29,731 bases of DNA from an uncultured Candidatus Saccharibacteria bacterium (GTDB taxonomy: Bacteria > Patescibacteriota > Minisyncoccia > Phycocordibacterales > WO2-35-19), in the NCBI GenBank assembly GCA_964417625.1, contig CAYQIR010000002.1, positions 11,227 through 40,957 on the forward strand, given 5' to 3'. Each line of letters starts with the position of its first letter. Position 1 is the first letter of the stretch. A program made the translations under genes and the position numbers. This document shows, piece after piece, positions 5,486-29,341 of the stretch. The notes beneath the pieces are model-generated. The model made no database searches. It was not told where the DNA came from and was given only the letters and a program-made list of their open reading frames with translations.

Positions 5486-5525
5486 CCCCATCTCCTTGAC
5501 TAAGGAGAGGGTAGGAGGTGAGGTT
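5486..5525 (+). repeat. REP-like palindrome (DUF559-associated family)
   Basis: TCTCCTT-gact-AAGGAGA hairpin followed by the GGGTAGGAGGTGAGGTT tail; matches the copies at 11822 and 24465. Confidence 0.65.
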
Positions 5526-8908: not shown

Positions 8909-9077
8909 ATACGAAAATTATGCGAAAGCTACAAAAAGGTAACGAGAATTTTTTCTTCCTTCTCCTTCGCAACCCGTCCGACTGGGTCATCCACCTGTGC
9001 CGGTACGGACAGGTCCGGGCGGAGGAGAGGGGTTGGGGTGAGGTCGAGTTTTTGCAGCTTTTCGTATTATTTCGTAT
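8909..9077. repeat. Nested inverted-repeat element between mraY and ftsW
   Basis: Imperfect ~29-bp IR at 8909-8937/9049-9077; inner 12-bp stem at 8958-8969/9020-9031 with a REP-type GGGGTTGGGGTGAGG tail; innermost ACCTGT..ACAGGT hairpin. Confidence 0.55.
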
Positions 9078-11360: not shown

Positions 11361-11396
11361 CCTAACCCCCTAAATCCCCCTTAACTTAAGGGGGAA
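11361..11396 (-). repeat. REP-like palindrome upstream of the DUF559 gene
   Basis: TCCCCCTTAA-c-TTAAGGGGGA (11375-11395) plus an AACCCCC tail in reverse orientation. Confidence 0.75.
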
Positions 11397-11450
11397 TTTA
11401 TGGAAAGCTTCGCTTGCTCTTAAATTCAAAAAAACGGTTATAATATTCGC

Positions 11451-11834
11451 ATGTATAAATTCAGTTTCAACAACACATCACTCAAAAATCGCAGAAGGAA
11501 GCTGCGAGCCAATCAAACCAATGCTGAGAAAAAATTGTGGGAATTTCTGCGAGGCAGAAGATTTCGTGGACTAAAATTTTATCGCCAGTTTAGTGTTGGA
11601 GCGTACATATTGGATTTTTACTGTTCAAAATTAAGGCTCGCCATTGAACTAGATGGAGGCCATCACAAAGAAAATGAAACGGTGCTGTACGATAAAGATA
11701 GAGAAAAAATTCTAAAGGCCTCGAATGTTCGCGTAATCAGATTTTGGAATGATGAAGTCGAAAATAACACAGAGAATGTGCTGGGAAAATTAGATGAAGA
11801 GATAAATAAGGAAGGTTTGGTTCCCCTCTCTTAA
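11451..11834 (+). CDS. DUF559 / Vsr-like PD-(D/E)XK endonuclease
   Basis: RRKLRANQTNAEKKLW, KFYRQ, ILDFYC, LAIELDGGHH, D..R...L...VIRFWN; TATAAT 6 nt upstream (leaderless). Confidence 0.9.
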   Translation: MYKFSFNNTSLKNRRRKLRANQTNAEKKLWEFLRGRRFRGLKFYRQFSVGAYILDFYCSKLRLAIELDGGHHKENETVLYDKDREKILKASNVRVIRFWNDEVENNTENVLGKLDEEINKEGLVPLS

Positions 11835-11862
11835 TTTAAGAGAGGGGATAGGGGTGAGTTAG
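11822..11862 (+). repeat. REP-like palindrome containing the DUF559 stop codon
   Basis: 13-bp IR TCCCCTCTCTTAA-t-TTAAGAGAGGGGA followed by TAGGGGTGAGTTAG. Confidence 0.8.
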
Positions 11863-11889
11863 AAAAAGGGTGCGGAGCATTCCACAAGT

Positions 11890-11924
11890 TCCCTCTTAAC
11901 TTAAGAGGGATTTAGAGAGTTAGG
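11890..11924 (+). repeat. REP-like palindrome, second copy downstream of DUF559
   Basis: 10-bp IR TCCCTCTTAA-c-TTAAGAGGGA followed by TTTAGAGAGTTAGG. Confidence 0.75.
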
Positions 11925-14613: not shown

Positions 14614-14643
14614 AAATAATTTATAATATAATTATCTTTCAAG

Positions 14644-14680
14644 GGGCATCCTTAAACTGCTCCGGTCCCAAAGGGTGCCC
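14644..14680 (+). other. Hairpin with conserved loop, copy 1 (candidate 5'-UTR RNA or DNA motif)
   Basis: 10-bp stem with one G-T pair and loop AAACTGCTCCGGTCCCA; TATAAT at 14622-14627 upstream. Confidence 0.5.
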
Positions 14681-14698
14681 ATTGGCAGAGAACAAAAA

Positions 14699-14989
14699 AT
14701 GATTCAGCAGTCAGATTTTAAAAAAATAAATAGGGAAGTCTCCCCCAATCCAAAACAGTCCGGCTTCATCCAAATAGCCGTCATTATCATCGGCGCTCTG
14801 GTTATCCTCAAGTATGCCTACGATATAGATGTCGTCGGTTTTCTCACCACAGGCAAATTCAGAGTCTGGCTGGACAAAATTTACAATCTAGCCAGTCTGG
14901 GCTGGCAAAAATACGATGCTTACATAATCAAAATTTGGAACTATTTTATTGATTTTGCAAAAAATTTGGTTGCTAAAGCCAGAGGATAG
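14699..14989 (+). CDS. Small membrane protein with a prepilin-like N-terminus (KQSG|FIQIAVIII)
   Basis: The ATG at 14699 lies outside the hairpin; basic/polar leader followed by GF and a hydrophobic helix. Confidence 0.65.
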   Translation: MIQQSDFKKINREVSPNPKQSGFIQIAVIIIGALVILKYAYDIDVVGFLTTGKFRVWLDKIYNLASLGWQKYDAYIIKIWNYFIDFAKNLVAKARG

Positions 14990-15121
14990 GAAGTATTTTA
15001 AAAGAAATATTATATAAATATTATATTTTGTTCATAAAAATTTATTCTGCGTAAGTGGGGAAGTGCATATTTTGGAAAACGGCCGGACCCTGTGTTTATT
15101 TATATATAGTTATAGTATTGT

Positions 15122-15314
15122 GTCGCAAAGATATATTGTGCGACGTTACTACTGTTGCTATCACCCGTCAAAGGGCGTCTTTAAACTGCCCTGTCCCAAA
15201 AGACGCCCTTTGACGGGACAACGGTCCCAAAGGGCTGTGTCCTTGGCAACCTTTGGCTTGACGGGAAAACAAAAATCCCCTTCCGATGTCCATCGGAATA
15301 GGGATTTTTGTTTT
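15122..15314 (+). ncRNA. Candidate ~190-nt structured ncRNA
   Basis: Perfect 19-bp stem at 15164-15182/15199-15217 with loop AAACTGCCCTGTCCCA; closing stem at 15154-15160/15244-15250; further hairpins; ends in a terminator. Strand inferred from G-T pairs. Confidence 0.4.
15266..15314. terminator. Bidirectional intrinsic terminator
   Basis: AAAACAAAAATCCC/GGGATTTTTGTTTT outer IR with inner TTCCGATG/CATCGGAA; lies just beyond the stop of the minus-strand gene at 15332. Confidence 0.75.
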
Positions 15315-15331
15315 AAGTCATTTCAACTATT

Positions 15332-16144: not shown

Positions 16145-18877
16145 TTAAAATTCTTTGTAGTTTGGATCTACCGCAAAGTTGGCTAACACGGTTTCGTTGC
16201 CAACACCCTTGGTAAATGTGCAGGTTGGTTGCCTTTGATTGCCTTCAGTAGTGCAAGTAACTCCGCTCCAGCCGGTGAATATTCTATTGGAAGCGTGCGA
16301 CTCGATAAGCTGAACGGAAGTGCCGGGTATGTAATTTTCACTGCAATCAGTGCCGCAATTGATTCCCACCGGAAGGCTTGTTACCAGCCCCTGCCCTGTC
16401 CTTATAACATTCAAAGCAGAAGCAGGAGCATCCTGAATATTAATAGTCACCGTATCAAACGAATTTGGCCCAACCGGATCGCAGGCAATGGTATAGCTGG
16501 TGGATTGATATAAAGGACCGACGGTAGCGCTTCCTGAGCCATTCGGATAAGCAGCAGGGTTTGGTTTTGGCTGCGAAGTAATAGTGCAACTATCGACAGT
16601 AGCGCTTGAATATTGCCAGCTTAAAACAGAAGTATCGGTACCATATATAACACTGGTAGGATTGGCATCAATATTTACCACAGCGGGAGGCGTTGGCGTA
16701 ACCGTTGCGGAAACCGTAGGAGAATTTCCTCCGGCATTCGTGCAATATAATGTGTAAGTCGTTGCGGCGCTGATGCCGGATATCGTCTGATTTCCTCCAG
16801 CTACCGCTTTTGAACCGCTCCAGCCTCCCCCAGCAGTGCAGGAAGTAACATTTGAGCCGGAAACCGTCCAGGTCAGAGTTGAGGTTAGAGGCGAAGTGCC
16901 GGTGGTTGGATTGGCGACAAGAGTAACGGTTGGAGCCGGAGGGTTTACCACCACCGTCGCTCTTGCCGTGGCATCAGAAGTGCCGGCTTTTGAGCAAGTG
17001 ATGTCAAATATTTGGGTACTTGCCGGAATGCCGGTTCTGTCTTCAAATCCGCCTGATGGAGTCTTTGATCCGCTCCAATAGTTTGAGGCGGTGCAGGAAG
17101 TCGGGCTGCCTGTCGTGGTCCAGGTCAGCCTGGTAGTTCCCGGAGCAGTGAGCGGACCGGCTGGAGAGGCAGAAAGGGTAACGGAGATCGCGCCGACCGG
17201 CGTCACCGTTGCGGAAACCGTAGGAGAATTTCCTCCGGCATTCGTGCAATATAATGTGTAAGTCGTTGCGGCGCTGATGCCGGATATCGTCTGATTTCCT
17301 CCAGCTACCGCTTTTGAACCGCTCCAGCCTCCCCCAGCAGTGCAGGAAGTAACATTTGAGCCGGAAACCGTCCAGGTCAGAGTTGAGGTTAGAGGCGAAG
17401 TGCCGGTGGTTGGATTGGCGACAAGAGTAACGGTTGGAGCCGGAGGGTTTACCACCACCGTCGCTCTTGCCGTGGCATCAGAAGTGCCGGCTTTTGAGCA
17501 AGTGATGTCAAATATTTGGGTACTTGCCGGAATGCCGGTTCTGTCTTCAAATCCGCCTGATGGAGTCTTTGATCCGCTCCAATAGTTTGAGGCGGTGCAG
17601 GAAGTCGGGCTGCCTGTCGTGGTCCAGGTCAGCCTGGTAGTTCCCGGAGCAGTGAGCGGACCGGCTGGAGAGGCAGAGAGGGTGACGGAGATTGGACACG
17701 CAGATGAGACTGTACCAATAACTGAGCCGCTTGGAGCCGAAGAACCGGCCAGACTGGTTGCTACTACAGTGTATGAATGTGGCGTGCCAGGGGTAAGGCT
17801 AGTGTCCTGAAAAGATAAACCTGATGCATTATACACAGGCGTGCCTCCCCCATCTCTATATACTTGATAACTCGTCGCTCCGCCGGAAGCGTTCCAAGAT
17901 ATATTAAGCAAATTACTGTCGCATGACCCGGCCGAAACGCTGAGGCCGGTAGGAGTAGGAGGCGGCGGTGCTATGGTAGCACTACAAGAACTAACTCCCC
18001 ACCCATAGTCGGTATAACAGGTCCAGGACCAACCGGTACCGGTGGAAGTCAGTGAGCCTTGGGAATTGCCTATATTAAAATGAGCGGTATCGGAAACAGG
18101 CGCTCCGGTATCGCACAAGAATCGGGGGTCATATACTCCGCCACTCTGCGTATCAGGAGCTGCATAATCTTTGTTAACTGCATCACTGTGATACGGAAAA
18201 GCTTTACCATTAAAAGAACCGCAAGTGCCGTAAAAATACGCCATACATTGAGCATTGGTGCCTCCATTTATGCCCGCACATTGCCAATACCAAGGTCCAC
18301 CGCCGACAAAAGTTGACGGATAAGCTAGGCCGCTATCGCAAGCAGGAGTAGATAAAGATGAATATGAACCCAAATGATTATAGCCACAAGCTCCATTAAC
18401 CACCGTCGTATCAACAGTACAGTCATACGAACAAATTTCAGGATTTTCCGTATTTGGGTCACAGTACCCATCTCCACAAGAAGTGCCGTCTCCAGGCTGG
18501 CCGCAACATGCTGTCTGGCCATCACAAGGATCGTTAACATCATCACATACTCCGCCCGGAGGATAGATTGGTATGCAATCGCATCCTGTAGTTGAAGAAC
18601 AATTGAAAATACCGCTTCCTGATGAGTACGGGCAGAATTGGCCTGATGACGCGCAAACGGCTGATCCAGTATCACCACAGTCAATAGAACAACTTCCGTC
18701 GTTACTGTAATTGCATGTGTCGGTTCCGCAAGCTGCATCCCATGTATTACATGTCCCTGAATCAGCCACTACCACCCCTGCTGGTAAAAAATAGAGAACC
18801 AAAAACATTACAGCTAGTAGAAGCAATAAAGTTAATATTCTGGATTTTGGTAAAAATAAGTTAGTAACTATTGACAT
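16145..18877 (-). CDS. 910-aa Cys-rich surface/adhesin-like protein (FN3, Ig-like repeats, InlB-B-repeat-like C-terminus)
   Basis: N-terminal TM/signal; 18 Cys in ~115 aa including CGDGYC; NGACG repeat; FN3-like ISWN..ATSYQVYR; duplicated Ig-like pairs; GQGLVTS.P.GINCG.DC..F.GWSG. Confidence 0.85.
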   Translation of the reverse strand: MSIVTNLFLPKSRILTLLLLLAVMFLVLYFLPAGVVVADSGTCNTWDAACGTDTCNYSNDGSCSIDCGDTGSAVCASSGQFCPYSSGSGIFNCSSTTGCDCIPIYPPGGVCDDVNDPCDGQTACCGQPGDGTSCGDGYCDPNTENPEICSYDCTVDTTVVNGACGYNHLGSYSSLSTPACDSGLAYPSTFVGGGPWYWQCAGINGGTNAQCMAYFYGTCGSFNGKAFPYHSDAVNKDYAAPDTQSGGVYDPRFLCDTGAPVSDTAHFNIGNSQGSLTSTGTGWSWTCYTDYGWGVSSCSATIAPPPPTPTGLSVSAGSCDSNLLNISWNASGGATSYQVYRDGGGTPVYNASGLSFQDTSLTPGTPHSYTVVATSLAGSSAPSGSVIGTVSSACPISVTLSASPAGPLTAPGTTRLTWTTTGSPTSCTASNYWSGSKTPSGGFEDRTGIPASTQIFDITCSKAGTSDATARATVVVNPPAPTVTLVANPTTGTSPLTSTLTWTVSGSNVTSCTAGGGWSGSKAVAGGNQTISGISAATTYTLYCTNAGGNSPTVSATVTPVGAISVTLSASPAGPLTAPGTTRLTWTTTGSPTSCTASNYWSGSKTPSGGFEDRTGIPASTQIFDITCSKAGTSDATARATVVVNPPAPTVTLVANPTTGTSPLTSTLTWTVSGSNVTSCTAGGGWSGSKAVAGGNQTISGISAATTYTLYCTNAGGNSPTVSATVTPTPPAVVNIDANPTSVIYGTDTSVLSWQYSSATVDSCTITSQPKPNPAAYPNGSGSATVGPLYQSTSYTIACDPVGPNSFDTVTINIQDAPASALNVIRTGQGLVTSLPVGINCGTDCSENYIPGTSVQLIESHASNRIFTGWSGVTCTTEGNQRQPTCTFTKGVGNETVLANFAVDPNYKEF
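16695..17692. repeat. 504-bp in-frame tandem duplication
   Basis: 16701-17173 reads identical to 17205-17677 by eye; a few synonymous differences occur only at the unit edges. Confidence 0.95.
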
Positions 18878-18886
18878 ATTATTTTT

Positions 18887-19471
18887 TTATTGTAAGGTTT
18901 TAACTACAAGTTCAACGTTATTTTCTTTTTGAGTAAACATAATTCTGACTTGCGTTTTAGATTGAGAATTTACATATTCCATAAAGCCAAACTTATCAGA
19001 ATACAAGCCTGTTTGGAATAACCACTGAGTATTATTAAAATCTCTAATTTTTTCTAGAATATTACCCTGAATAGTTGAATTGCTGATTGTGTAATTAAAG
19101 AAATAGCCGATTTGTTTCTGTTCTTCATATTCTAATTTTTTGGTGAAAACTTGCGCATCAAAATCAGTAAAAACAAAATCCCGCAACTCTTCGGGCAGAT
19201 CTGCTGACTTTATGGGCGTAGTTTTAACGACGTTAGGAAAAATAATAGCAGCTTGACTTAAAAATGTTCTTTGTTTGTCTCTGAGTTCCTGTTCCGCTGT
19301 TTTGGTATTCGTTGGATTTAGATTAAATTTATCTTGCCAAAAAATCAAATAAAAAGAAATGAGGACGGCAGCAACAATTATTGTCGCTCCTTTAAACCAT
19401 GTGGTCTTAAAAAACGGTTTTGAAGGTGAAGGAATAGTTAAGTTTTGGTTATATATTTCTCCCATTGACAC
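18887..19471 (-). CDS. Single-TM hypothetical protein, AT-rich, probable operon partner of the surface protein (start may be the ATG at 19465)
   Basis: One TM helix; 9-nt gap to the 910-aa gene; TGaTATAAT at 19475-19483; spot count 18/60 GC at 18961-19020. Confidence 0.75.
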   Translation of the reverse strand: MSMGEIYNQNLTIPSPSKPFFKTTWFKGATIIVAAVLISFYLIFWQDKFNLNPTNTKTAEQELRDKQRTFLSQAAIIFPNVVKTTPIKSADLPEELRDFVFTDFDAQVFTKKLEYEEQKQIGYFFNYTISNSTIQGNILEKIRDFNNTQWLFQTGLYSDKFGFMEYVNSQSKTQVRIMFTQKENNVELVVKTLQ

Positions 19472-19639
19472 TCAATTATATCAAAAAATAGTATAATTTT
19501 AGGTAAATGATATGTGGATAAGTGCATTAACACACAGATTGTCCACTCTTTAAAGATACCCGTTTATAACACGTGTTGTATAATTCTAATTAGATGTTTG
19601 ATGTTCGTTGACTTCAACCTGGTATAAAGGAGGTGTCAA

Positions 19640-21769
19640 ATGCGCCATATTTTTTGGGTCGTATTCTTCGTGAACGCGGCCTTGGGACAACAACAATACA
19701 CAATTACAGAGATGCCGGCGATTTCGCCGACTGTCTCAATTGTGACTCGTCTTGCGGTTGGCCCGGACAACAAAGTCTGGGCAGTGTACCAAGATCAAGG
19801 CCGGGGGTTTATCGCCGTCAAAGAAGCAGGTCAGCAGGGGTTTAGTGTGGTTGGTGGTAATGTCAACCCATCTTTCTTTTCCCCTAAAATGTCATGGTCT
19901 GGGCGTTCCGACGGGCCATGGATGACTATGGGATCATTCTTCCCCCAACCTGGAGCACGTAGCCTGCTGGGAGAATTCACGGGCGAAAGAGTCAATGGAG
20001 TTTCTACTTACAAGAATGTTACTTTAGAAGCAACTCTACTTCCCAGCCTAAACGCTCTCTGTCCAAACTACAGCGTTAAAAATGCTGGCAGTAACAATCC
20101 TGCTCCTGTCACTTATATTGGTCCGTTCCCGTCAAACGGGGCTTACCACATGCTGTTGACCGGCACAGATAAACTCACGTCGATTTATCGACTCAACCCT
20201 TCAGGTTGCAGTCTAGACCTCGTCGTCAAGACTTCGATCTGGGCTTTGCAGGCATGGCCAATTGGAAACAATTTGTTCCTTACGGAACGGATCGTGAATC
20301 CAAATTTCATTAGTCAAGTATCTGAGATCGGCACTATTGACTCTGGTGGGAAATTTACCAGCCTGGTCAAGTCTGACAGGAGTGATCGGTGCGACATGGT
20401 GTTTGACCATGCCCAACAGCAGGCTCTTATATCCTGCAAAGACGCTAGAGGCGGTCGCGTCGTCCTGTTCAGGAATGGAGCTATTCGGGAAATTTACTCC
20501 GGTGGCGAAGTGTCGCAGAACGTTCGAGCAATCGCCATAAACGGCGACTATGCCGTGTTCGGTGGCAGCACTACCAATGTACCGATTGCTACGTTGCTAC
20601 TCGCCAATCTCCAAACCGGCACGGTTGCTGTGTTGGTAAAAGCCGGAGACAAGAGGCACCCTGTTGTGGAAGCTCTGGTTGGATTTGTTGCAGATACAAT
20701 AAGTGTTTCCACGGACGGTATAGTGTATTTTGGCGGCGCAGCAGCCGGCTGGGCGAAAACTTTTGTTGTAGCCCCTCATGCCTCAGTCCTTCAGCCACAG
20801 CTTGACCCTATTAGCGGAGTTCTCATTGGCCGGACTGCAACACTCTCCGGCAAGAATCTCGTGCAGCCGCAGACGGTTACGACCGTCCTGCTAAACGGAA
20901 CGAGTATCCCGTTCAATACGCTTGGAGACCGGCTGGACATCACTGCCCCCTCGGTCCCCGGCACCTATGCGGTCCAAGTGAAAGTAGTTGGTGCAGTAGA
21001 GCAACTTTCCAACATCATCCAGCTCACAGTATCAGCGCCTGTGCCGGTCAACCCCGTATTCTCCGCTGCCGCTGTGGTGGACAATGCCTCGGGACAGAAC
21101 CCCTGTTCTCCAGGCGGAATTTGCTCCGTTTATGGTACTCGGCTGGCCATTGCTACCGCCGTAGCTTCAATAATTCCGTTGCCAACCGTGCTTGCCGGTA
21201 CGCAAGTACTGGTAAACAACGTTCCGGCCCCGCTTTTCTTTGTTTCCCCAGGCCAAATCAATTTCCAGATGCCTTGGGAAACAGCTGTAGGCCAGGCAAC
21301 TATGATGGTGATTTCCGGTTCGCTTTCAAGCGACTCGGTTGCCATTACAGTTATAGAGTCAGGGCCAGGGCTTTATCGAGCAAATGGCCTCGCCATTGCT
21401 CAAGATGGCCTGACCGGCATACTGACAAATACCGCCGACTCTCCGGCCTACGGAGGACAGGTGCTGGTGCTATACGGCACAGGGTTTGGGTTGACCGAAT
21501 GCAAAGTTGCAACTGGTTCCATCACTCCCGCAAAGCTTTGCACCGTCCTCCAAAAAGTCTCCGTGAATTTCGCTGGCGCGCAAGCGCAGGTTCTCTGGGC
21601 AGGCCTTTCTCCCGGTTGGATTGGCCTCTACCAGATCAACTTAGTGGTTCCGGACACGCTCCCCATTCCTGGGGACACGCCCGAACTGGTAGAAATTTCT
21701 CTGGAAGTCGGCAACCGCAAGGACGCCACTTCCAAAGGGATTCTGCTTGGTCAAAGGAGGCTTCCATAA
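19640..21769 (+). CDS. Secreted protein with an IPT/TIG-like domain and a Solibacter-type C-terminal domain (TIGR03437-like)
   Basis: Signal peptide; C-terminus LPTVLAGTQVLVNNVPAPLFFVSPGQINFQMP ... VLYGTGFG ... AGLSPGWIGLYQINLVVP; AAGGAGGT Shine-Dalgarno. Confidence 0.85.
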   Translation: MRHIFWVVFFVNAALGQQQYTITEMPAISPTVSIVTRLAVGPDNKVWAVYQDQGRGFIAVKEAGQQGFSVVGGNVNPSFFSPKMSWSGRSDGPWMTMGSFFPQPGARSLLGEFTGERVNGVSTYKNVTLEATLLPSLNALCPNYSVKNAGSNNPAPVTYIGPFPSNGAYHMLLTGTDKLTSIYRLNPSGCSLDLVVKTSIWALQAWPIGNNLFLTERIVNPNFISQVSEIGTIDSGGKFTSLVKSDRSDRCDMVFDHAQQQALISCKDARGGRVVLFRNGAIREIYSGGEVSQNVRAIAINGDYAVFGGSTTNVPIATLLLANLQTGTVAVLVKAGDKRHPVVEALVGFVADTISVSTDGIVYFGGAAAGWAKTFVVAPHASVLQPQLDPISGVLIGRTATLSGKNLVQPQTVTTVLLNGTSIPFNTLGDRLDITAPSVPGTYAVQVKVVGAVEQLSNIIQLTVSAPVPVNPVFSAAAVVDNASGQNPCSPGGICSVYGTRLAIATAVASIIPLPTVLAGTQVLVNNVPAPLFFVSPGQINFQMPWETAVGQATMMVISGSLSSDSVAITVIESGPGLYRANGLAIAQDGLTGILTNTADSPAYGGQVLVLYGTGFGLTECKVATGSITPAKLCTVLQKVSVNFAGAQAQVLWAGLSPGWIGLYQINLVVPDTLPIPGDTPELVEISLEVGNRKDATSKGILLGQRRLP

Positions 21770-21811
21770 CCTCTTTTGTGTACAAAACAATCCCGCTGTT
21801 TGCGGGACCGC

Positions 21812-21860
21812 CCGGCCGGGACGATGCGTAGATTCGCAAAGTCCCGGCCGGTTTTAGTTT
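21812..21860 (+). terminator. Intrinsic terminator
   Basis: 11-bp IR CCGGCCGGGAC/GTCCCGGCCGG followed by TTTTAGTTTT. Confidence 0.7.
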
Positions 21861-21875
21861 TCCACTTTTTTGTGC

Positions 21876-21903
21876 TTGACAATATATATAATTTTGATAT
21901 AAT
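21876..21903 (+). promoter_or_regulatory. Near-consensus sigma70 promoter for the S8 protease gene
   Basis: TTGACA, 16 nt, TATAAT with TG extension; GAGGAG RBS before the ATG at 21951. Confidence 0.7.
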
Positions 21904-21950
21904 AGAACTAGAATTATTGAGGTTATTTGTAAATTTGAGAGGAGACGGAT

Positions 21951-23015
21951 ATGAAAACGGCATTCGCGTTAATCACGCTGGTCGTTTTCGCACGACCGGC
22001 TCAATCACAAACACGGGAACTGAACGATCCGCTTTACGCGCGCCAGGAGAGAAGCTTCGTGCAAGCCGGCGTACCATCCCTTTGGGCCGCCGTCGGCAAG
22101 ACAGTCGAAATTCCGGTCATTGATTTGGACACCGGGGTTGACTGCAACCATGAAGATATCTGGCGCGCGACTGACGCTTCGCAAGCCAAGTCGTTCGCGG
22201 ACAGGAAGCCATGCCAAGATGAATACGGGCACGGCACACGGACTTCGGCCGTTATCGCCGGACAGTCTGGCAACGAGATTGGCATCGCAGGAATCGCTGG
22301 CAACGTCCGGCTCATTCCTTACAAGATTGCCGCTCTCCTGCCGGACGGCACGCTGACCATGGGCGACGACTCGGTCGAAACTCTGGTCAAGGCGTTTGAC
22401 GCCATTGCTGAACTGCCCTACCCGCTCGTGATTGTTAACGCGAGCACGGCAGTCGGCTGCAACTCGCTTGAATGCTTTGGTTCGGATAAAGTCCGGGCAG
22501 CAATCGAGAGATTGCAAAACAAAGCGCTCATCGTAGCAGCCGCCGGCAACAACGGCTTCGGCCGTCAGCAAGGCGGGCAGGATGTGGATGCGTTTGAGCA
22601 TCTGCCCTGCACGGCGAGCAACTTGCCTAATGTGATTTGTGTCGGCGCTGTTGATTTTGAAGGACGGCTCATGTCGTCTTCCAACTTTGGCAGCAAGGTG
22701 CAGATCGCCGCTCCGGGCAACTGGGTTTGGACTGCAGTGCCTGGCAATCAGTACGCTCCGACTTCCGGCACTTCCATCGCGACGCCTTTCGTTTCAGGTA
22801 TCGCCGCGCTAGTAGCCGGGTCAATGCTCGCTGACGGCGCATCAGTCGAAAGAGTGACGCCTGCAACGCTCAAGCAGGCTCTCCTCGCCGGTGCCAAGTC
22901 CGAGCCTCAATCGGAGAATACCTTGGCCACCGCTCCTAACAACCCCGCCGTCGTGGACGGCCTGGGAACGCTAACAGCATTGCAAAAGCTGCTAGCAGAA
23001 CCGCCACAAAACTGA
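21951..23015 (+). CDS. Secreted subtilisin-family (S8) serine protease
   Basis: Catalytic triad in DLDTG, HGT and GTSIATP, oxyanion AAAGN, signal peptide. Confidence 0.93.
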   Translation: MKTAFALITLVVFARPAQSQTRELNDPLYARQERSFVQAGVPSLWAAVGKTVEIPVIDLDTGVDCNHEDIWRATDASQAKSFADRKPCQDEYGHGTRTSAVIAGQSGNEIGIAGIAGNVRLIPYKIAALLPDGTLTMGDDSVETLVKAFDAIAELPYPLVIVNASTAVGCNSLECFGSDKVRAAIERLQNKALIVAAAGNNGFGRQQGGQDVDAFEHLPCTASNLPNVICVGAVDFEGRLMSSSNFGSKVQIAAPGNWVWTAVPGNQYAPTSGTSIATPFVSGIAALVAGSMLADGASVERVTPATLKQALLAGAKSEPQSENTLATAPNNPAVVDGLGTLTALQKLLAEPPQN

Positions 23016-23065: not shown

Positions 23066-23560
23066 CTATTTCAACCCTTTGCAATTTGAAGCAGGAGTGT
23101 AGCCGGCGGCGCGAGCTTCTTCAATGGAATTAAAAGTGATTTTATTTTTTTCGGAAATTTGTTTGGCGCCAGCGCACCAAGGGTAATGATATTTGGTGCC
23201 ATTTTTTGAACCAACAACCGCACTATTATTCAAACCAGATTGCTCGGAGCCCATGTCTATATTTGCCCCCTTCACTTCTCCTATATTGTTCTTTTCGGTC
23301 TCCCCCTTAATGTAAGGGGGATTAAGGGGGTTATTAGTATCAGGATTTTGCGAAACAATCCGCACCGGCTCCCTCTCCCCGGCTATTTTAGAAATCCGGC
23401 CCAAACAAAAAGCAATAATAGCAACCAAAATGATAACTGCTGGCACGAAATACCGACCAGTCAAAAAGGCCTCCATTTTGGCCCGAAGACCCCCGCCTTT
23501 TGAAGAATCCAAATCTTCTAGGTCCACATATTCCTCTATATTATGTTGATCTTCTTGCAT
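23066..23560 (-). CDS. Membrane-anchored protein with an Ada-type metal-binding domain
   Basis: TM helix followed by GSKNGTKYHYPWC...F.S.EEA.AAGY.PA.NC. Confidence 0.8.
   Translation of the reverse strand: MQEDQHNIEEYVDLEDLDSSKGGGLRAKMEAFLTGRYFVPAVIILVAIIAFCLGRISKIAGEREPVRIVSQNPDTNNPLNPPYIKGETEKNNIGEVKGANIDMGSEQSGLNNSAVVGSKNGTKYHYPWCAGAKQISEKNKITFNSIEEARAAGYTPASNCKGLK
23301..23333 (+). repeat. REP-like palindrome inside the Ada-like CDS
   Basis: TCCCCCTTA-atg-TAAGGGGGA plus TTAAGGGGGTTA; closely matches the reverse complement of 11364-11395 and encodes NPLNPPYIKGE. Confidence 0.75.
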
Positions 23561-24464: not shown

Positions 24465-24503
24465 CCCCTATCTTATATTTAAGAGAGGGGTTGGGGTGAG
24501 TTA
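24465..24503 (+). repeat. REP-like palindrome
   Basis: CCCCTATCTTA-tatt-TAAGAGAGGGG plus TTGGGGTGAGTTA; close to the copy at 11822. Confidence 0.75.
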
Positions 24504-28094: not shown

Positions 28095-28123
28095 CTCTCC
28101 CCTAGTTGTGCGATCGCACAACT
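28095..28123. repeat. 29-bp direct repeat with a perfect 20-bp palindrome (3' end of the PaaX-like gene)
   Basis: CTCTCCCCT-AGTTGTGCGATCGCACAACT; contains the gene's stop codon. Confidence 0.9.
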
Positions 28124-28719
28124 GTGGTAGGTTCCGTATAAGGAAAGTTGATTTTAAGCTTAAAATCTGGCTCTACCGAACGGGCTACGATATAACGCAC
28201 ATATTTTTTGATCTCATACAATTCGGCAATCTTAAACATTTGTTCTTTGCACTCGTGGGGATACACAAAAACAGATTTTTCAAAATTATACATCCCGGCA
28301 AAATTAAGAGCTCTGTTAAAACGCTGCCTGTTTATTTTTAGTTTCTCGGGTATATCAAAAGTTACAATTCTCCAAAAACCATCCCATTTAATTCCTAAAG
28401 GTAATTTGATTGATTTAACTTTAAGGCCGGCAAAATAAATTCTGCCTTCTTTTGTTAATTTCAATTTCCTTTTGCCATTTTTCATCCAAAAGCGTATAAA
28501 TTTTCTTTTTTCAAGTGAGTTGAGTATACGTTCTGTTCTGTACTTATTTTTCCAATCCGGAACCCATCCCAGCAGTTTGATAATATGTCCAGCCGCATTC
28601 GGCGCAGCAACTCCTAAAAATAAAATGGTTCCTAGTTTACCAATCGCCTCTAAAATTTCCAAAGTTCTTTCGTCTCTGGCAAATTTTTTAACTTTTTGAA
28701 TTTTTTCTTTTATCTCCAC
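28102..28719 (-). CDS. PaaX-like protein: winged-HTH plus Cas2/VapD-like domain
   Basis: L..LEKRKFI...KLKLTKEG (wing) followed by WDGFWRIVTFDIPE...R..F.R.L...G...EKSVFV.P; GTG start 8 nt after TATAAT. Confidence 0.8.
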   Translation of the reverse strand: MEIKEKIQKVKKFARDERTLEILEAIGKLGTILFLGVAAPNAAGHIIKLLGWVPDWKNKYRTERILNSLEKRKFIRFWMKNGKRKLKLTKEGRIYFAGLKVKSIKLPLGIKWDGFWRIVTFDIPEKLKINRQRFNRALNFAGMYNFEKSVFVYPHECKEQMFKIAELYEIKKYVRYIVARSVEPDFKLKINFPYTEPTTVVRSHN

Positions 28720-28738: not shown

Positions 28739-28767
28739 CTCTCCCCTAGTTGCGCGATCGCACAACT
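28739..28767. repeat. 29-bp direct repeat, second copy (promoter side of the PaaX-like gene)
   Basis: CTCTCCCCT-AGTTGCGCGATCGCACAACT; 28/29 identical to 28095-28123. Confidence 0.9.
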
Positions 28768-28820
28768 AAGGGATAATGAGAATTGATATAAATTTATGAT
28801 AGAATTTAAAAAATAAAAAT

Positions 28821-28894
28821 GCGAGATTAGTTTAGTGGCAAAATGGGTGCTTCCCAAGCATCAGACGCGAGTTCGATTCTCGCATCTCGCACCA
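28821..28894 (+). tRNA. tRNA-Gly (anticodon CCC)
   Basis: Cloverleaf: acceptor GCGAGAT/ATCTCGC, anticodon arm GGTGC-TTCCCAA-GCATC, T arm GCGAG-TTCGATT-CTCGC, encoded CCA. Confidence 0.95.
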
Positions 28895-29068: not shown

Positions 29069-29341
29069 ATGCACTACGTTGTCTACATTTTAGAAGATCA
29101 AATAGACAAAACTTGGTATATTGGTTTTACTCATGATTTAAAGCAAAGATTGAAAGACCATAAATCTGGACATAGCCCTTATACAAGCAAGAAAAAAGAT
29201 TTGAAACTTATTTATGCAGAAATGTATTTGAGTAAAGCGGATGCTTTGGGTAGAGAAAAATTTTTGAAAAGTGGGTCTGGGCATAGATTTATAAAGAAGC
29301 AGTTGGCAAATTATTTTGATCTAAGCAAATTAGACCGCTAG
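29069..29341 (+). CDS. Stand-alone GIY-YIG nuclease-family protein
   Basis: YVVYIL, WYIGFT.DL..RL..H, EMYLSK.DA..RE.FLKSG.G. Confidence 0.9.
   Translation: MHYVVYILEDQIDKTWYIGFTHDLKQRLKDHKSGHSPYTSKKKDLKLIYAEMYLSKADALGREKFLKSGSGHRFIKKQLANYFDLSKLDR

What the first reader, a model, noticed from the sequence alone, without database searches (positions are those of the whole stretch)
14644..15234. Same loop sequence presented on two unrelated stems
Seen: hairpin 1 has stem GGGCATCCTT/AAGGGTGCCC and loop AAACTGCTCCGGTCCCA. Hairpin 2 has a perfect 19-bp stem ending ..GCGTCTTT/AAAGACGC.. and loop AAACTGCCCTGTCCCA. A third partial copy, CGGTCCCAAAGGG at 15222-15234, equals 14663-14675 exactly. Conserved loop with divergent but paired stems is the signature of a functional RNA or ssDNA recognition motif, not a simple duplication. 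The two hairpins bracket a small prepilin-like membrane gene. I cannot match the motif to a known riboswitch, ribozyme, attC or IS end.
Basis: partly seen in the sequence, partly recalled or inferred. Interest (0 to 1): 0.7.

Follow-up and report, generated by a model that had tools for sequence, protein, structure and literature searches.

The report
Small hairpin repeat that invades genes
The two hairpins are copies of a roughly 53-base palindromic repeat that is scattered through the genomes of a group of ultra-small groundwater bacteria, where it even sits in-frame inside essential genes; it is not a regulatory RNA for the neighbouring gene.

Summary
H1 (14635-14689) and H2 (15164-15217) are hairpins that share the loop AAACTGCYC(C)GGTCCCA, and a half copy lies at 15222-15249.

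The stems are not unrelated. They align at 77% identity, and their differences are compensatory.

The motif has no Rfam match. Collection scans and a covariance model found 17 distinct copies in Zambryskibacteria-like Parcubacteria. In these copies 95% of stem cells are paired and 11 of 18 pairs show double changes.

Six sites lie inside long ORFs: RecG, PriA, ValRS, FolD, and LepA twice. They occur in both orientations, are always in-frame and stop-free, and never use the two frames that contain TAA.

Close relatives show empty sites: H1 in four genomes, H2 in three, LepA site b, and 84 of 119 RecG homologs. There are also flipped loops, copies nested in the loops of other copies, and swapped stem subtypes.

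The bracketed gene exists in relatives without either hairpin, so the bracketing is coincidental.

My best reading is a mobile, non-autonomous palindromic mini-element, analogous to Rickettsia palindromic elements but a third of their size. How it is mobilised is unknown. A host function is not excluded.

The parts
14635..14689 (+). Element copy H1. Core stem 14644-14653 / 14671-14680, 17-nt loop 14654-14670, and an outer imperfect stem. It lies between the M23 peptidase stop (14613) and the ATG of the small membrane ORF (14699).
   Evidence: Sequence; fold -23.2 kcal/mol, z -2.4; covariance model 71.2 bits. The site is empty in syntenic L019, L030, L031 and L033, and the window spacer is about 58 nt longer.
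15164..15217 (+). Element copy H2. Perfect 19-bp stem and 16-nt loop 15183-15198, in the spacer between the small membrane ORF and the convergent SLT-like gene.
   Evidence: covariance model 71.3 bits. The stem subtype GGCGT is shared with the ValRS copy in L008/L023. The site is filled in L019 and empty in L030, L031 and L033.
15222..15249 (+). 3' half of an older, disrupted copy: the end of the loop (CGGTCCCA) plus the 3' arm AAGGGCTGTGTCCTTGGCAAC. Its presumed 5' stub GTTGC lies at 15153-15157, so H2 sits inside it.
   Evidence: Exact 13-mer shared with H1. The arm ends in the family's CCTTGGCA motif (alignment A2). The centroid fold pairs 15153-15158 with 15244-15249 around H2. Nested copies of the same kind occur in L019 LepA and L039 RecG. 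The stub assignment is an inference.
15250..15262 (+). Possible further arm debris: CCTTTGGCTTGACGGG-like sequence that repeats the 3' end of H2 (TTGACGGG).
   Evidence: Read directly from the sequence. Weak, not tested statistically.
14699..14989 (+). Small membrane ORF between the two copies. This is context, not part of the element.
   Evidence: ORF. Conserved with synteny in L019, L030, L031 and L033 without the hairpins. No Pfam family.
15266..15314 (.). Bidirectional terminator-like hairpin with A/T runs, between H2 and the SLT-like gene. This is context.
   Evidence: Sequence and fold. Analogous hairpins lie at the same place in L019 and L030.

Best explanation
H1 and H2 are two copies of a family of very small (about 49-57 nt) palindromic dispersed repeats. 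A third copy is present as a disrupted remnant. The family is specific to a clade of Parcubacteria (Zambryskibacteria and relatives).

Each copy is a 17-19 bp, almost purely Watson-Crick stem. The stem base is (G)YCAARG and the stem top is CYTT/AARG. The middle 5 bp are free to covary. The loop is an asymmetric 16-17 nt sequence, RAACTGCYCCRGTCCCA.

The element is, or recently was, mobile and non-autonomous. It appears at new sites, including inside the loops of resident copies. It can be flipped by recombination between its arms. It can be overwritten by another stem subtype.

When it lands in a gene, it survives only in a permissive surface loop, in one of the four stop-free frames, and with a net length that is a multiple of three. 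It is then translated as about 13-18 extra residues.

Shown here: family membership, covariation, in-frame coding copies, filled and empty sites, flipping, and nesting.

Inferred: (1) the conserved loop plus stem ends are the recognition surface of a trans-acting, structure-specific enzyme that acts on the hairpin, probably as ssDNA; (2) the two window copies have no dedicated role for the gene between them.
For: Family and structure:
- The genome and metagenome scans found the loop inside perfect 17-19 bp stems only in CPR contigs. There are three exact-loop copies in one genome (MHWB01: L003, L011, L014). A fourth copy with the same stem, 4.2 kb from the PriA copy, lies on a metagenome contig carrying the same PriA copy as L003 (L016 6527-6587).
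- Across 17 distinct copies, 95.4% of stem cells are paired, 11 of 18 pairs change on both sides, and 0 of 500 shuffles reach this. All slid controls collapse.

Coding copies:
- They lie in RecG, FolD, PriA, ValRS and LepA (two sites), sense or antisense, inside open frames of 311-755 codons (514 and 150 where the locus cuts the gene short). They use four of the six frames; the two frames with TAA are never used.
- They coincide with gaps relative to solved homologs.

Filled versus empty sites:
- LepA site b is empty in L019 and filled in L025, a difference of 48 nt.
- H1 is empty in four syntenic genomes and H2 in three.
- In RecG, 84 of 119 homologs keep the native TNKEK-like sequence and 17 carry the element. 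The DNA difference is 39 nt.

Dynamics at the RecG site:
- L038 has the loop flipped, with the GAAC variant that removes the TAA.
- L039 has another family member nested in the loop.
- L040 carries the ACAGT stem subtype seen in PriA of a sister genome.
- In L002 the stem is decaying.

Nested or remnant copies occur in L019 LepA and in the window at 15222-15249.

G.U pairs are nearly absent: 5 of 306 cells. This fits a DNA palindrome better than a selected RNA helix.

No Rfam family matches.
Against: - No transposase, recombinase or other candidate mobilising gene was seen in the window or in any fetched locus (gene tables of 31-33 and 53-56). Whole genomes could not be searched.
- No target-site duplication could be defined. 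At the RecG site about 12 native bases are replaced rather than simply split, which is not the footprint of a classical cut-and-paste or copy-and-paste transposon.
- Pairing is kept between orthologous RecG copies through double, nonsynonymous changes (L004 versus L017). This could mean the hairpin itself is under selection in place.
- The copy number is low: about one extra copy per 30-45 kb of fetched sequence.
Confidence: 0.72

Rival explanations
1. Host-functional motif. The hairpin is a recognition site, as RNA in transcripts or as DNA, for a host protein involved in regulating mRNA stability or translation, or in chromosome organisation or replication. It is kept by selection at each site, and its dispersal is secondary.
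For: The loop is far better conserved across copies than the middle of the stem (A2 and A4). Orthologous RecG copies keep pairing through compensatory changes that alter the protein. In four simple cases the single non-Watson-Crick pair is G.U on the transcribed strand (H1, L014, L019 spacer, L025b). Several diverged copies lie directly after stop codons (L028 12495, L027 9677).
Against: Both orientations occur within genes, and the loop is flipped at one and the same RecG site. Most close relatives lack the element at every site examined. In an unbiased RecG protein set the loop peptide varies (NCSGPK, NYPGSK, KCPDPK and others), and in L002 the stem is decaying. The apparent loop conservation among my DNA loci is partly ascertainment, because they were found with a loop pattern. 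G.U pairs are rare.
Confidence: 0.13
2. RNA-level intervening sequence. The hairpin is cut out of the mRNA, or bypassed by the ribosome, so it never reaches the protein.
For: It is a long perfect stem inside coding sequence, about 50 nt, similar in size to known translational bypass gaps (from my own knowledge of T4 gene 60). In FolD it occupies the place of a segment that is conserved in solved homologs.
Against: All six coding sites are stop-free and keep the reading frame across the element. The two TAA-containing frames are never used. The flipped RecG allele carries exactly the substitution that removes the TAA. Net length differences are multiples of three: 48 nt and 39 nt. The canonical FolD segment is missing from the whole clade, including alleles without the hairpin.
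Confidence: 0.03
3. Locally generated palindromes. Each hairpin arose in place by template switching or quasi-palindrome correction during replication, without transposition.
For: The stems are nearly perfect Watson-Crick palindromes. Arm-to-arm correction would explain the compensatory changes without selection. Other hairpins with different loops exist in the same genomes (gltX in L031).
Against: A local process cannot produce the same 17-nt asymmetric loop, the same stem base and the same stem top at 11 or more unrelated sites in several genomes. The insertions are the full element length (+48 nt and +58 nt).
Confidence: 0.04

Closest known systems
Rickettsia palindromic elements (RPE; described in review PMC10969869)
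   Same: A dispersed palindromic repeat family in a small genome. Many copies are inserted in-frame in unrelated housekeeping genes and translated as extra peptide segments, while others are intergenic. The mobilising mechanism is unknown.
   Different: RPEs are about 100-150 bp and occur in an alphaproteobacterium. This element is about 53 nt: a single long perfect stem with a conserved asymmetric loop, in Parcubacteria. The coding copies use four different frames, so there is no conserved peptide. Sequence similarity to RPEs was not tested.
REP / REPIN elements mobilised by RAYT transposases (PMC3116915 listed; details from my own knowledge)
   Same: Short hairpin-forming repeats in which structure and a short motif are conserved while stems covary. 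They are thought to be recognised as ssDNA hairpins by a trans-acting HUH enzyme.
   Different: REPs are extragenic, shorter, imperfect, usually paired as REPINs, and carry a GTAG-type motif next to the stem. Here the copies are single, have a 17-nt conserved loop, and are frequently intragenic. No RAYT was seen, but whole genomes were not searched.
Very small dispersed repeats and MITEs of cyanobacteria (Elhai et al. 2008, Genome Research; from memory, not read here)
   Same: Tiny mobile repeats with hairpin potential that are found nested within each other and occasionally inside genes.
   Different: Different sequences and phylum.
Classical MITEs
   Same: Non-autonomous elements with inverted-repeat ends; the two arms resemble these.
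   Different: No target-site duplication was detectable, no parent IS is known, the size is at the extreme low end, and the whole element is one hairpin.

Membership tests
RPE-like in-frame palindromic repeats (functional class) | Dispersed multi-copy family within one genome | tested here: met
   Three exact-loop copies in MHWB01 (L003, L011, L014). A diverged fourth copy on a matching metagenome contig (L016 6527). Two copies plus a remnant in the window.
RPE-like in-frame palindromic repeats (functional class) | Palindromic, with conserved hairpin potential | tested here: met
   95.4% of cells paired, 11 of 18 pairs with double changes, 0 of 500 shuffles.
RPE-like in-frame palindromic repeats (functional class) | Copies inside ORFs that keep the frame and add a peptide segment | tested here: met
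   RecG, FolD, PriA, ValRS and LepA (two sites), all open and in-frame. The inserts coincide with gaps relative to PDB homologs.
RPE families 1-10 of Rickettsia (homology) | Length of about 100-150 bp, sequence similarity, and a conserved encoded peptide | tested here: not met
   Length is 49-57 nt and four different frames are used. Direct sequence comparison with RPEs was not done.
MITE | Terminal inverted repeats | tested here: met
   The two arms are 17-19 nt inverted repeats.
MITE | Target-site duplication flanking the element | tested here: inconclusive
   Filled and empty comparisons for LepA site b, RecG and H1 show no clear direct repeat. At the RecG site about 12 native bases are replaced.
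MITE | A related autonomous IS with a transposase in the same genomes | not testable with these tools
   Only 6-22 kb around each hit could be read. None was seen there.
REP/REPIN-RAYT | Extragenic location, with a RAYT gene flanked by REPs | tested here: not met
   Six sites are intragenic. No Y1 transposase was found in the window. The genome-wide RAYT search was not possible.
Known structured RNA family (riboswitch, ribozyme, sRNA) | Match to an Rfam covariance model | tested here: not met
   No hit at gathering thresholds. Only chance-level miRNA-like hits at E up to 10.
Cis-regulatory RNA | Constant orientation and position relative to a regulated gene class | tested here: not met
   Sense and antisense, coding and intergenic copies all occur, and the loop is flipped at one site.
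Intrinsic terminator | GC-rich hairpin directly followed by a U run | tested here: not met
   H1 is followed by CATTGGCAGAG and H2 by ACAACGG. A separate terminator lies at 15266-15314.
CRISPR repeat / integron attC / IS200-IS605 end | Regular array with spacers; adjacent integrase and cassettes; or TnpA/TnpB between the hairpins | tested here: not met
   There are two copies 529 nt apart, with a conserved host gene between them that exists without them in relatives. No such genes are in the window.

The most novel reading that the evidence does not exclude
The hairpin is the substrate of an undescribed, structure-specific DNA mobilisation or homing system in CPR bacteria. This might use one of the abundant stand-alone small nucleases (GIY-YIG or DUF559/Vsr-like) or an HUH enzyme. 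Such a system would paste the element into hairpin loops and into the same permissive codons of housekeeping genes again and again. That would explain the interleaving of filled and native RecG alleles in the tree, the nested copies and the stem swaps. Alternatively, the hairpin has been recruited as a genome-wide recognition site with a host function.
Probability: 0.15. Interest if true: 0.8.

Novelty: new variant of a known kind. Interest (0 to 1): 0.55.

Why it matters
CPR bacteria have tiny, streamlined genomes and are thought to carry few mobile elements. A 53-nt hairpin repeat that colonises the coding sequence of RecG, PriA, LepA, ValRS and FolD shows that even these genomes tolerate selfish DNA, and that their core proteins are reshaped by it.

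Such elements explain some of the lineage-specific insertions that complicate alignments, phylogenies and structure predictions of CPR proteins. They can mislead searches for structured RNAs, as happened here.

The combination of a conserved loop, a covarying stem, loop-targeted nesting and in-place flipping gives a clear handle for finding the enzyme that moves the element.

Tried and rejected
- Rfam at gathering and at permissive thresholds gave nothing real. The tRNA/tmRNA scan found only tRNA-Gly at 28821.
- The viral contig scan gave three matches, none in a hairpin, so they are chance matches.
- Nine of the 15 genome hits and one metagenome hit (L005 = L022, Nanoarchaeia) lack the long stem and were treated as chance.
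- I tested whether element orientation follows the replication direction using GC skew of the loci. The signs were inconsistent, so this was uninformative. Copies on the same contig share a strand in 5 of 5 cases, but flipping at the RecG site shows that orientation is not fixed.
- At first I read the RecG orthologs as showing nucleotide-level purifying selection: 51 of 53 bases identical against about 50% identity at flanking third codon positions. I withdrew this for the loop, because those loci were selected with a loop pattern. The unbiased protein set shows loop variation.
- I tested the model 'only the loop is mobile and the stem is an inverted copy of the target'. It is rejected because the filled sites are longer by the full element (+48 nt and +58 nt) and because stems share a consensus across sites.
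- The 'prepilin-like' label has no N_methyl or any other Pfam hit.
- The DNA of the flipped FolD allele P0016 could not be fetched. The flipped state was confirmed at DNA level in RecG instead.
- The PriA alignment to PDB did not reach the insert, so it was uninformative.
- Literature searches for such elements in CPR found nothing.

Full report
**1. The observation**

- H1 has the stem GGGCATCCTT / AAGGGTGCCC (14644-14653 / 14671-14680, one U.G pair) and the loop AAACTGCTCCGGTCCCA (14654-14670).
- H2 has a perfect 19-bp stem (15164-15182 / 15199-15217) and the loop AAACTGCCCTGTCCCA (15183-15198).
- CGGTCCCAAAGGG is present at both 14663 and 15222.

The loop pattern is expected 0.22 times by chance in the window and was found twice. 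The region 15100-15330 folds far better than shuffles (z = -9.3).

One point is wrong. The stems are not unrelated. The repeat finder aligns 14639-14673 with 15168-15202 at 77% (D11), and the stem differences are compensatory.

**2. Not a known RNA**

Rfam gives only tRNA-Gly in the window and chance-level hits in the region.

**3. A family in relatives**

I scanned 185,579 species genomes for TTAAACTGCYCN{1,3}GTCCCAAA and obtained 15 loci. Six of them have the loop inside perfect 17-19 bp stems, and all six are Candidatus Zambryskibacteria or 'Patescibacteria group' MAGs. Three are in a single genome. The other nine have no such stem.

The metagenome scan gave 11 loci. Ten show the same hairpin, and they come from groundwater (Hainich) and JGI samples. 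Viral contigs gave only chance matches.

I built a covariance model from 12 copies (A2, R1). It found further, more diverged copies in the fetched loci.

Across 17 distinct copies, 95.4% of stem cells pair, 11 of 18 pairs change on both sides, no shuffle reaches this, and all slid controls collapse. The consensus is (G)YCAARG-N5-CYTT [RAACTGCYCCRGTCCCA] AARG-N5-CYTTGR(C). G.U pairs are almost absent: 5 of 306 cells.

**4. The turn: it sits inside genes**

In the related loci the hairpin lies within long open reading frames:

- RecG (four lineages, sense; peptide ..SQGRTLNCSGPKGPTLA..)
- FolD (sense, in another frame; TLKLPQSQR)
- PriA (antisense)
- a ValRS-type synthetase (antisense)
- LepA/EF4 (two sites, antisense, in a third frame)

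Every copy is stop-free and keeps the frame. Four of the six possible frames are used. The two that contain TAA are not.

Alignments with solved homologs place the inserts in gaps:

- LepA has +14 and +13 residues relative to the best-matching solved EF4 (PDB 5imq).
- RecG has 36 residues where E. coli RecG has 10, between two helicase blocks.
- ValRS has +7 residues.

In FolD the whole clade lacks the canonical FHPxNxGxL segment, and the spacer between DxDGL and PATARGV ranges from 8 to 31 residues.

**5. Evidence that it moves**

(a) Filled and empty sites.
- LepA site b is empty in L019 and filled in the closely related LepA of L025, a difference of 48 nt.
- H1 is absent from four syntenic relatives, whose spacer is 20-27 nt against 85 nt in the window.
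- H2 is present in the window and L019 and absent in L030, L031 and L033.
- Of 119 close RecG homologs, 84 keep a native five-residue TNKEK-like sequence, 17 carry the element, and 18 carry other short inserts at the same codon. At DNA level the filled allele is 39 nt longer, and about 12 native bases are replaced.

(b) A recent copy. L016 6527-6587 has the same 19-bp stem as the PriA copy 4.2 kb away.

(c) Flipping. In L038 the RecG element has its loop reversed (TGGGACAGGGGCAGTTC). It carries the GAAC variant, which turns the would-be TAA into CAA. FolD protein P0016 shows the same flipped reading.

(d) Nesting. L039 RecG and L019 LepA each carry a second family member in place of the resident loop.

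(e) Stem swapping. RecG of L040 has the ACAGT stem subtype, which sits in PriA of a sister genome.

(f) Decay. L002 has a degraded stem.

In a neighbour-joining tree of RecG, filled alleles are confined to one part of the tree but are interleaved with native alleles. Deletion could not regenerate those native alleles. So the element was either gained repeatedly at one codon, or alleles are exchanged by recombination. The tree is only a distance tree, so I do not press this point.

**6. What this means for the window**

H1 is an insertion into the spacer upstream of the small membrane ORF.

H2 lies in the spacer downstream of that ORF, inside the wreck of an older copy. The older copy's 3' half is at 15222-15249 and its 5' stub GTTGC is at 15153-15157. 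The centroid fold pairs the two. A separate terminator follows at 15266-15314.

The gene between the hairpins is conserved with the same neighbours (gltX, M23 peptidase, SLT-like gene) in L019, L030, L031 and L033, without H1 and mostly without H2. The bracketing is therefore coincidental. The gene has no prepilin or other Pfam match.

The window is otherwise an ordinary CPR chromosome segment with no transposase.

**7. Mechanism**

Shown: a dispersed, covarying hairpin family that is gained at new sites, is tolerated and read through in coding sequence, and flips, nests and swaps.

Inferred: the invariant parts (loop, stem base, stem top) are what a trans-acting, structure-specific enzyme recognises. 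The free middle of the stem only has to pair.

Three things point to a DNA-level hairpin rather than a selected RNA: the near absence of G.U pairs, the occurrence in both orientations, and insertion into the loops of resident copies, which are single-stranded when the hairpin is extruded.

I cannot name the enzyme. The RecG junction, a replacement without a clear target duplication, does not look like classical transposition. It would also fit templated repair or a homing-like conversion.

**8. Rivals**

- A host-functional recognition motif remains possible (0.13). The loop is much better conserved than the stem middle, and pairing is kept between orthologs by nonsynonymous double changes. 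But most relatives lack the element at every site, the loop flips in place, the loop peptide varies in the unbiased RecG set, and my DNA set is biased towards intact loops.
- RNA-level removal or ribosomal bypass is unlikely, given frame and stop avoidance and the TAA-removing variant.
- Purely local palindrome formation cannot explain the shared loop, although arm-to-arm correction may help keep stems perfect.

**9. Comparison with what is known**

The closest analogue is the Rickettsia palindromic elements: dispersed palindromic repeats that are frequently inserted in-frame into housekeeping genes (PMC10969869). This family shares that behaviour. It differs in being a third of the size, in being a single long stem with a conserved asymmetric loop, in using several frames, and in belonging to a different phylum.

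It resembles REP/REPIN elements in the logic of a conserved motif with a covarying stem. However, it is intragenic, occurs singly, and lacks a visible RAYT.

I found no description of such elements in CPR bacteria. I therefore rate it a new variant of a known kind.

**10. Caveats**

- Only 6-22 kb around each hit could be read, so copy number per genome and associated genes are unknown.
- The roughly one extra copy per 30-45 kb comes from loci chosen because they already had one.
- E-values from R1 are rough.
- Orthology of H2 in the window and in L019 is uncertain, because the stems differ at many positions.

Noticed in passing
window 15127-15147 (also L019, L030, L031, L033): The 21-nt block AAAGATATATTGTGCGACGTT is invariant in five genomes, within an otherwise unalignable spacer between the small membrane gene and the convergent SLT-like gene (A3). 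The hairpin it forms in the window is not conserved. It could be a promoter, a protein-binding site or part of a small RNA; this is unexplained.
   Followed up: partly
window 11361-11413, 11823-11861, 11872-11924, 23301-23333, 24465-24503, 5495-5524, 9023-9044: A second, unrelated palindromic repeat family, with core CCCCTCTCTTAA..TTAAGAGAGGGG followed by TAGGGGTGAG. Two copies in inverted orientation flank the DUF559 (Vsr-like endonuclease) gene at 11451-11834.
   Followed up: partly
FolD homologs, alignment A1 columns 257-300 (e.g. L014 FolD residues ITPPNPLLLQEGEQKSK): A second variable in-frame insert is present in some FolD homologs and absent in others (PPNPLLLQEGE / PAPLLEAGEGSEQTKPSLPK). 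It looks like the translation of another palindromic repeat.
   Followed up: no
RecG homologs P0241-P0360, codon after KFPSK: The same codon of RecG that hosts the hairpin carries other short in-frame inserts in other lineages: TLRLRSGQAT (scattered over the tree), R(D/N/S)PSxSSGQx, INPPAGGKNT and SLSTSSRQAT. This suggests an insertion or tolerance hot spot used by several mini-element families.
   Followed up: partly
L031 12381-12436 (gltX): An in-frame hairpin with the family's stem top and base (CAAAGGGGAGGCCTT / AAGGCCTCCCCTT) but an unrelated loop (AGGGAATTTTCA), inside the glutamyl-tRNA synthetase gene.
   Followed up: partly
window 16145-23015: A block of about 7 kb is absent from the syntenic locus L019. 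It contains a 910-aa secreted repeat protein with an exact 300-nt internal duplication (16695-16994 = 17199-17498), a TIG-domain protein and an S8 subtilase. Other relatives have an FtsX/ABC/YknX block in this region.
   Followed up: no
window 28098-28130 and 28741-28773: The inverted repeat TCCCCTAGTTGYGCGATCGCACAACT flanks the PaaX-like gene at 28102-28719, next to tRNA-Gly(CCC) at 28821 and a small GIY-YIG gene at 29069-29341.
   Followed up: no
window as a whole versus related loci: The window has 46% G+C, whereas the related Zambryskibacteria-like loci have 33-40%. The closest homologs of its proteins are only about 70% identical, so the source genome has no close relative in the collections searched.
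   Followed up: no
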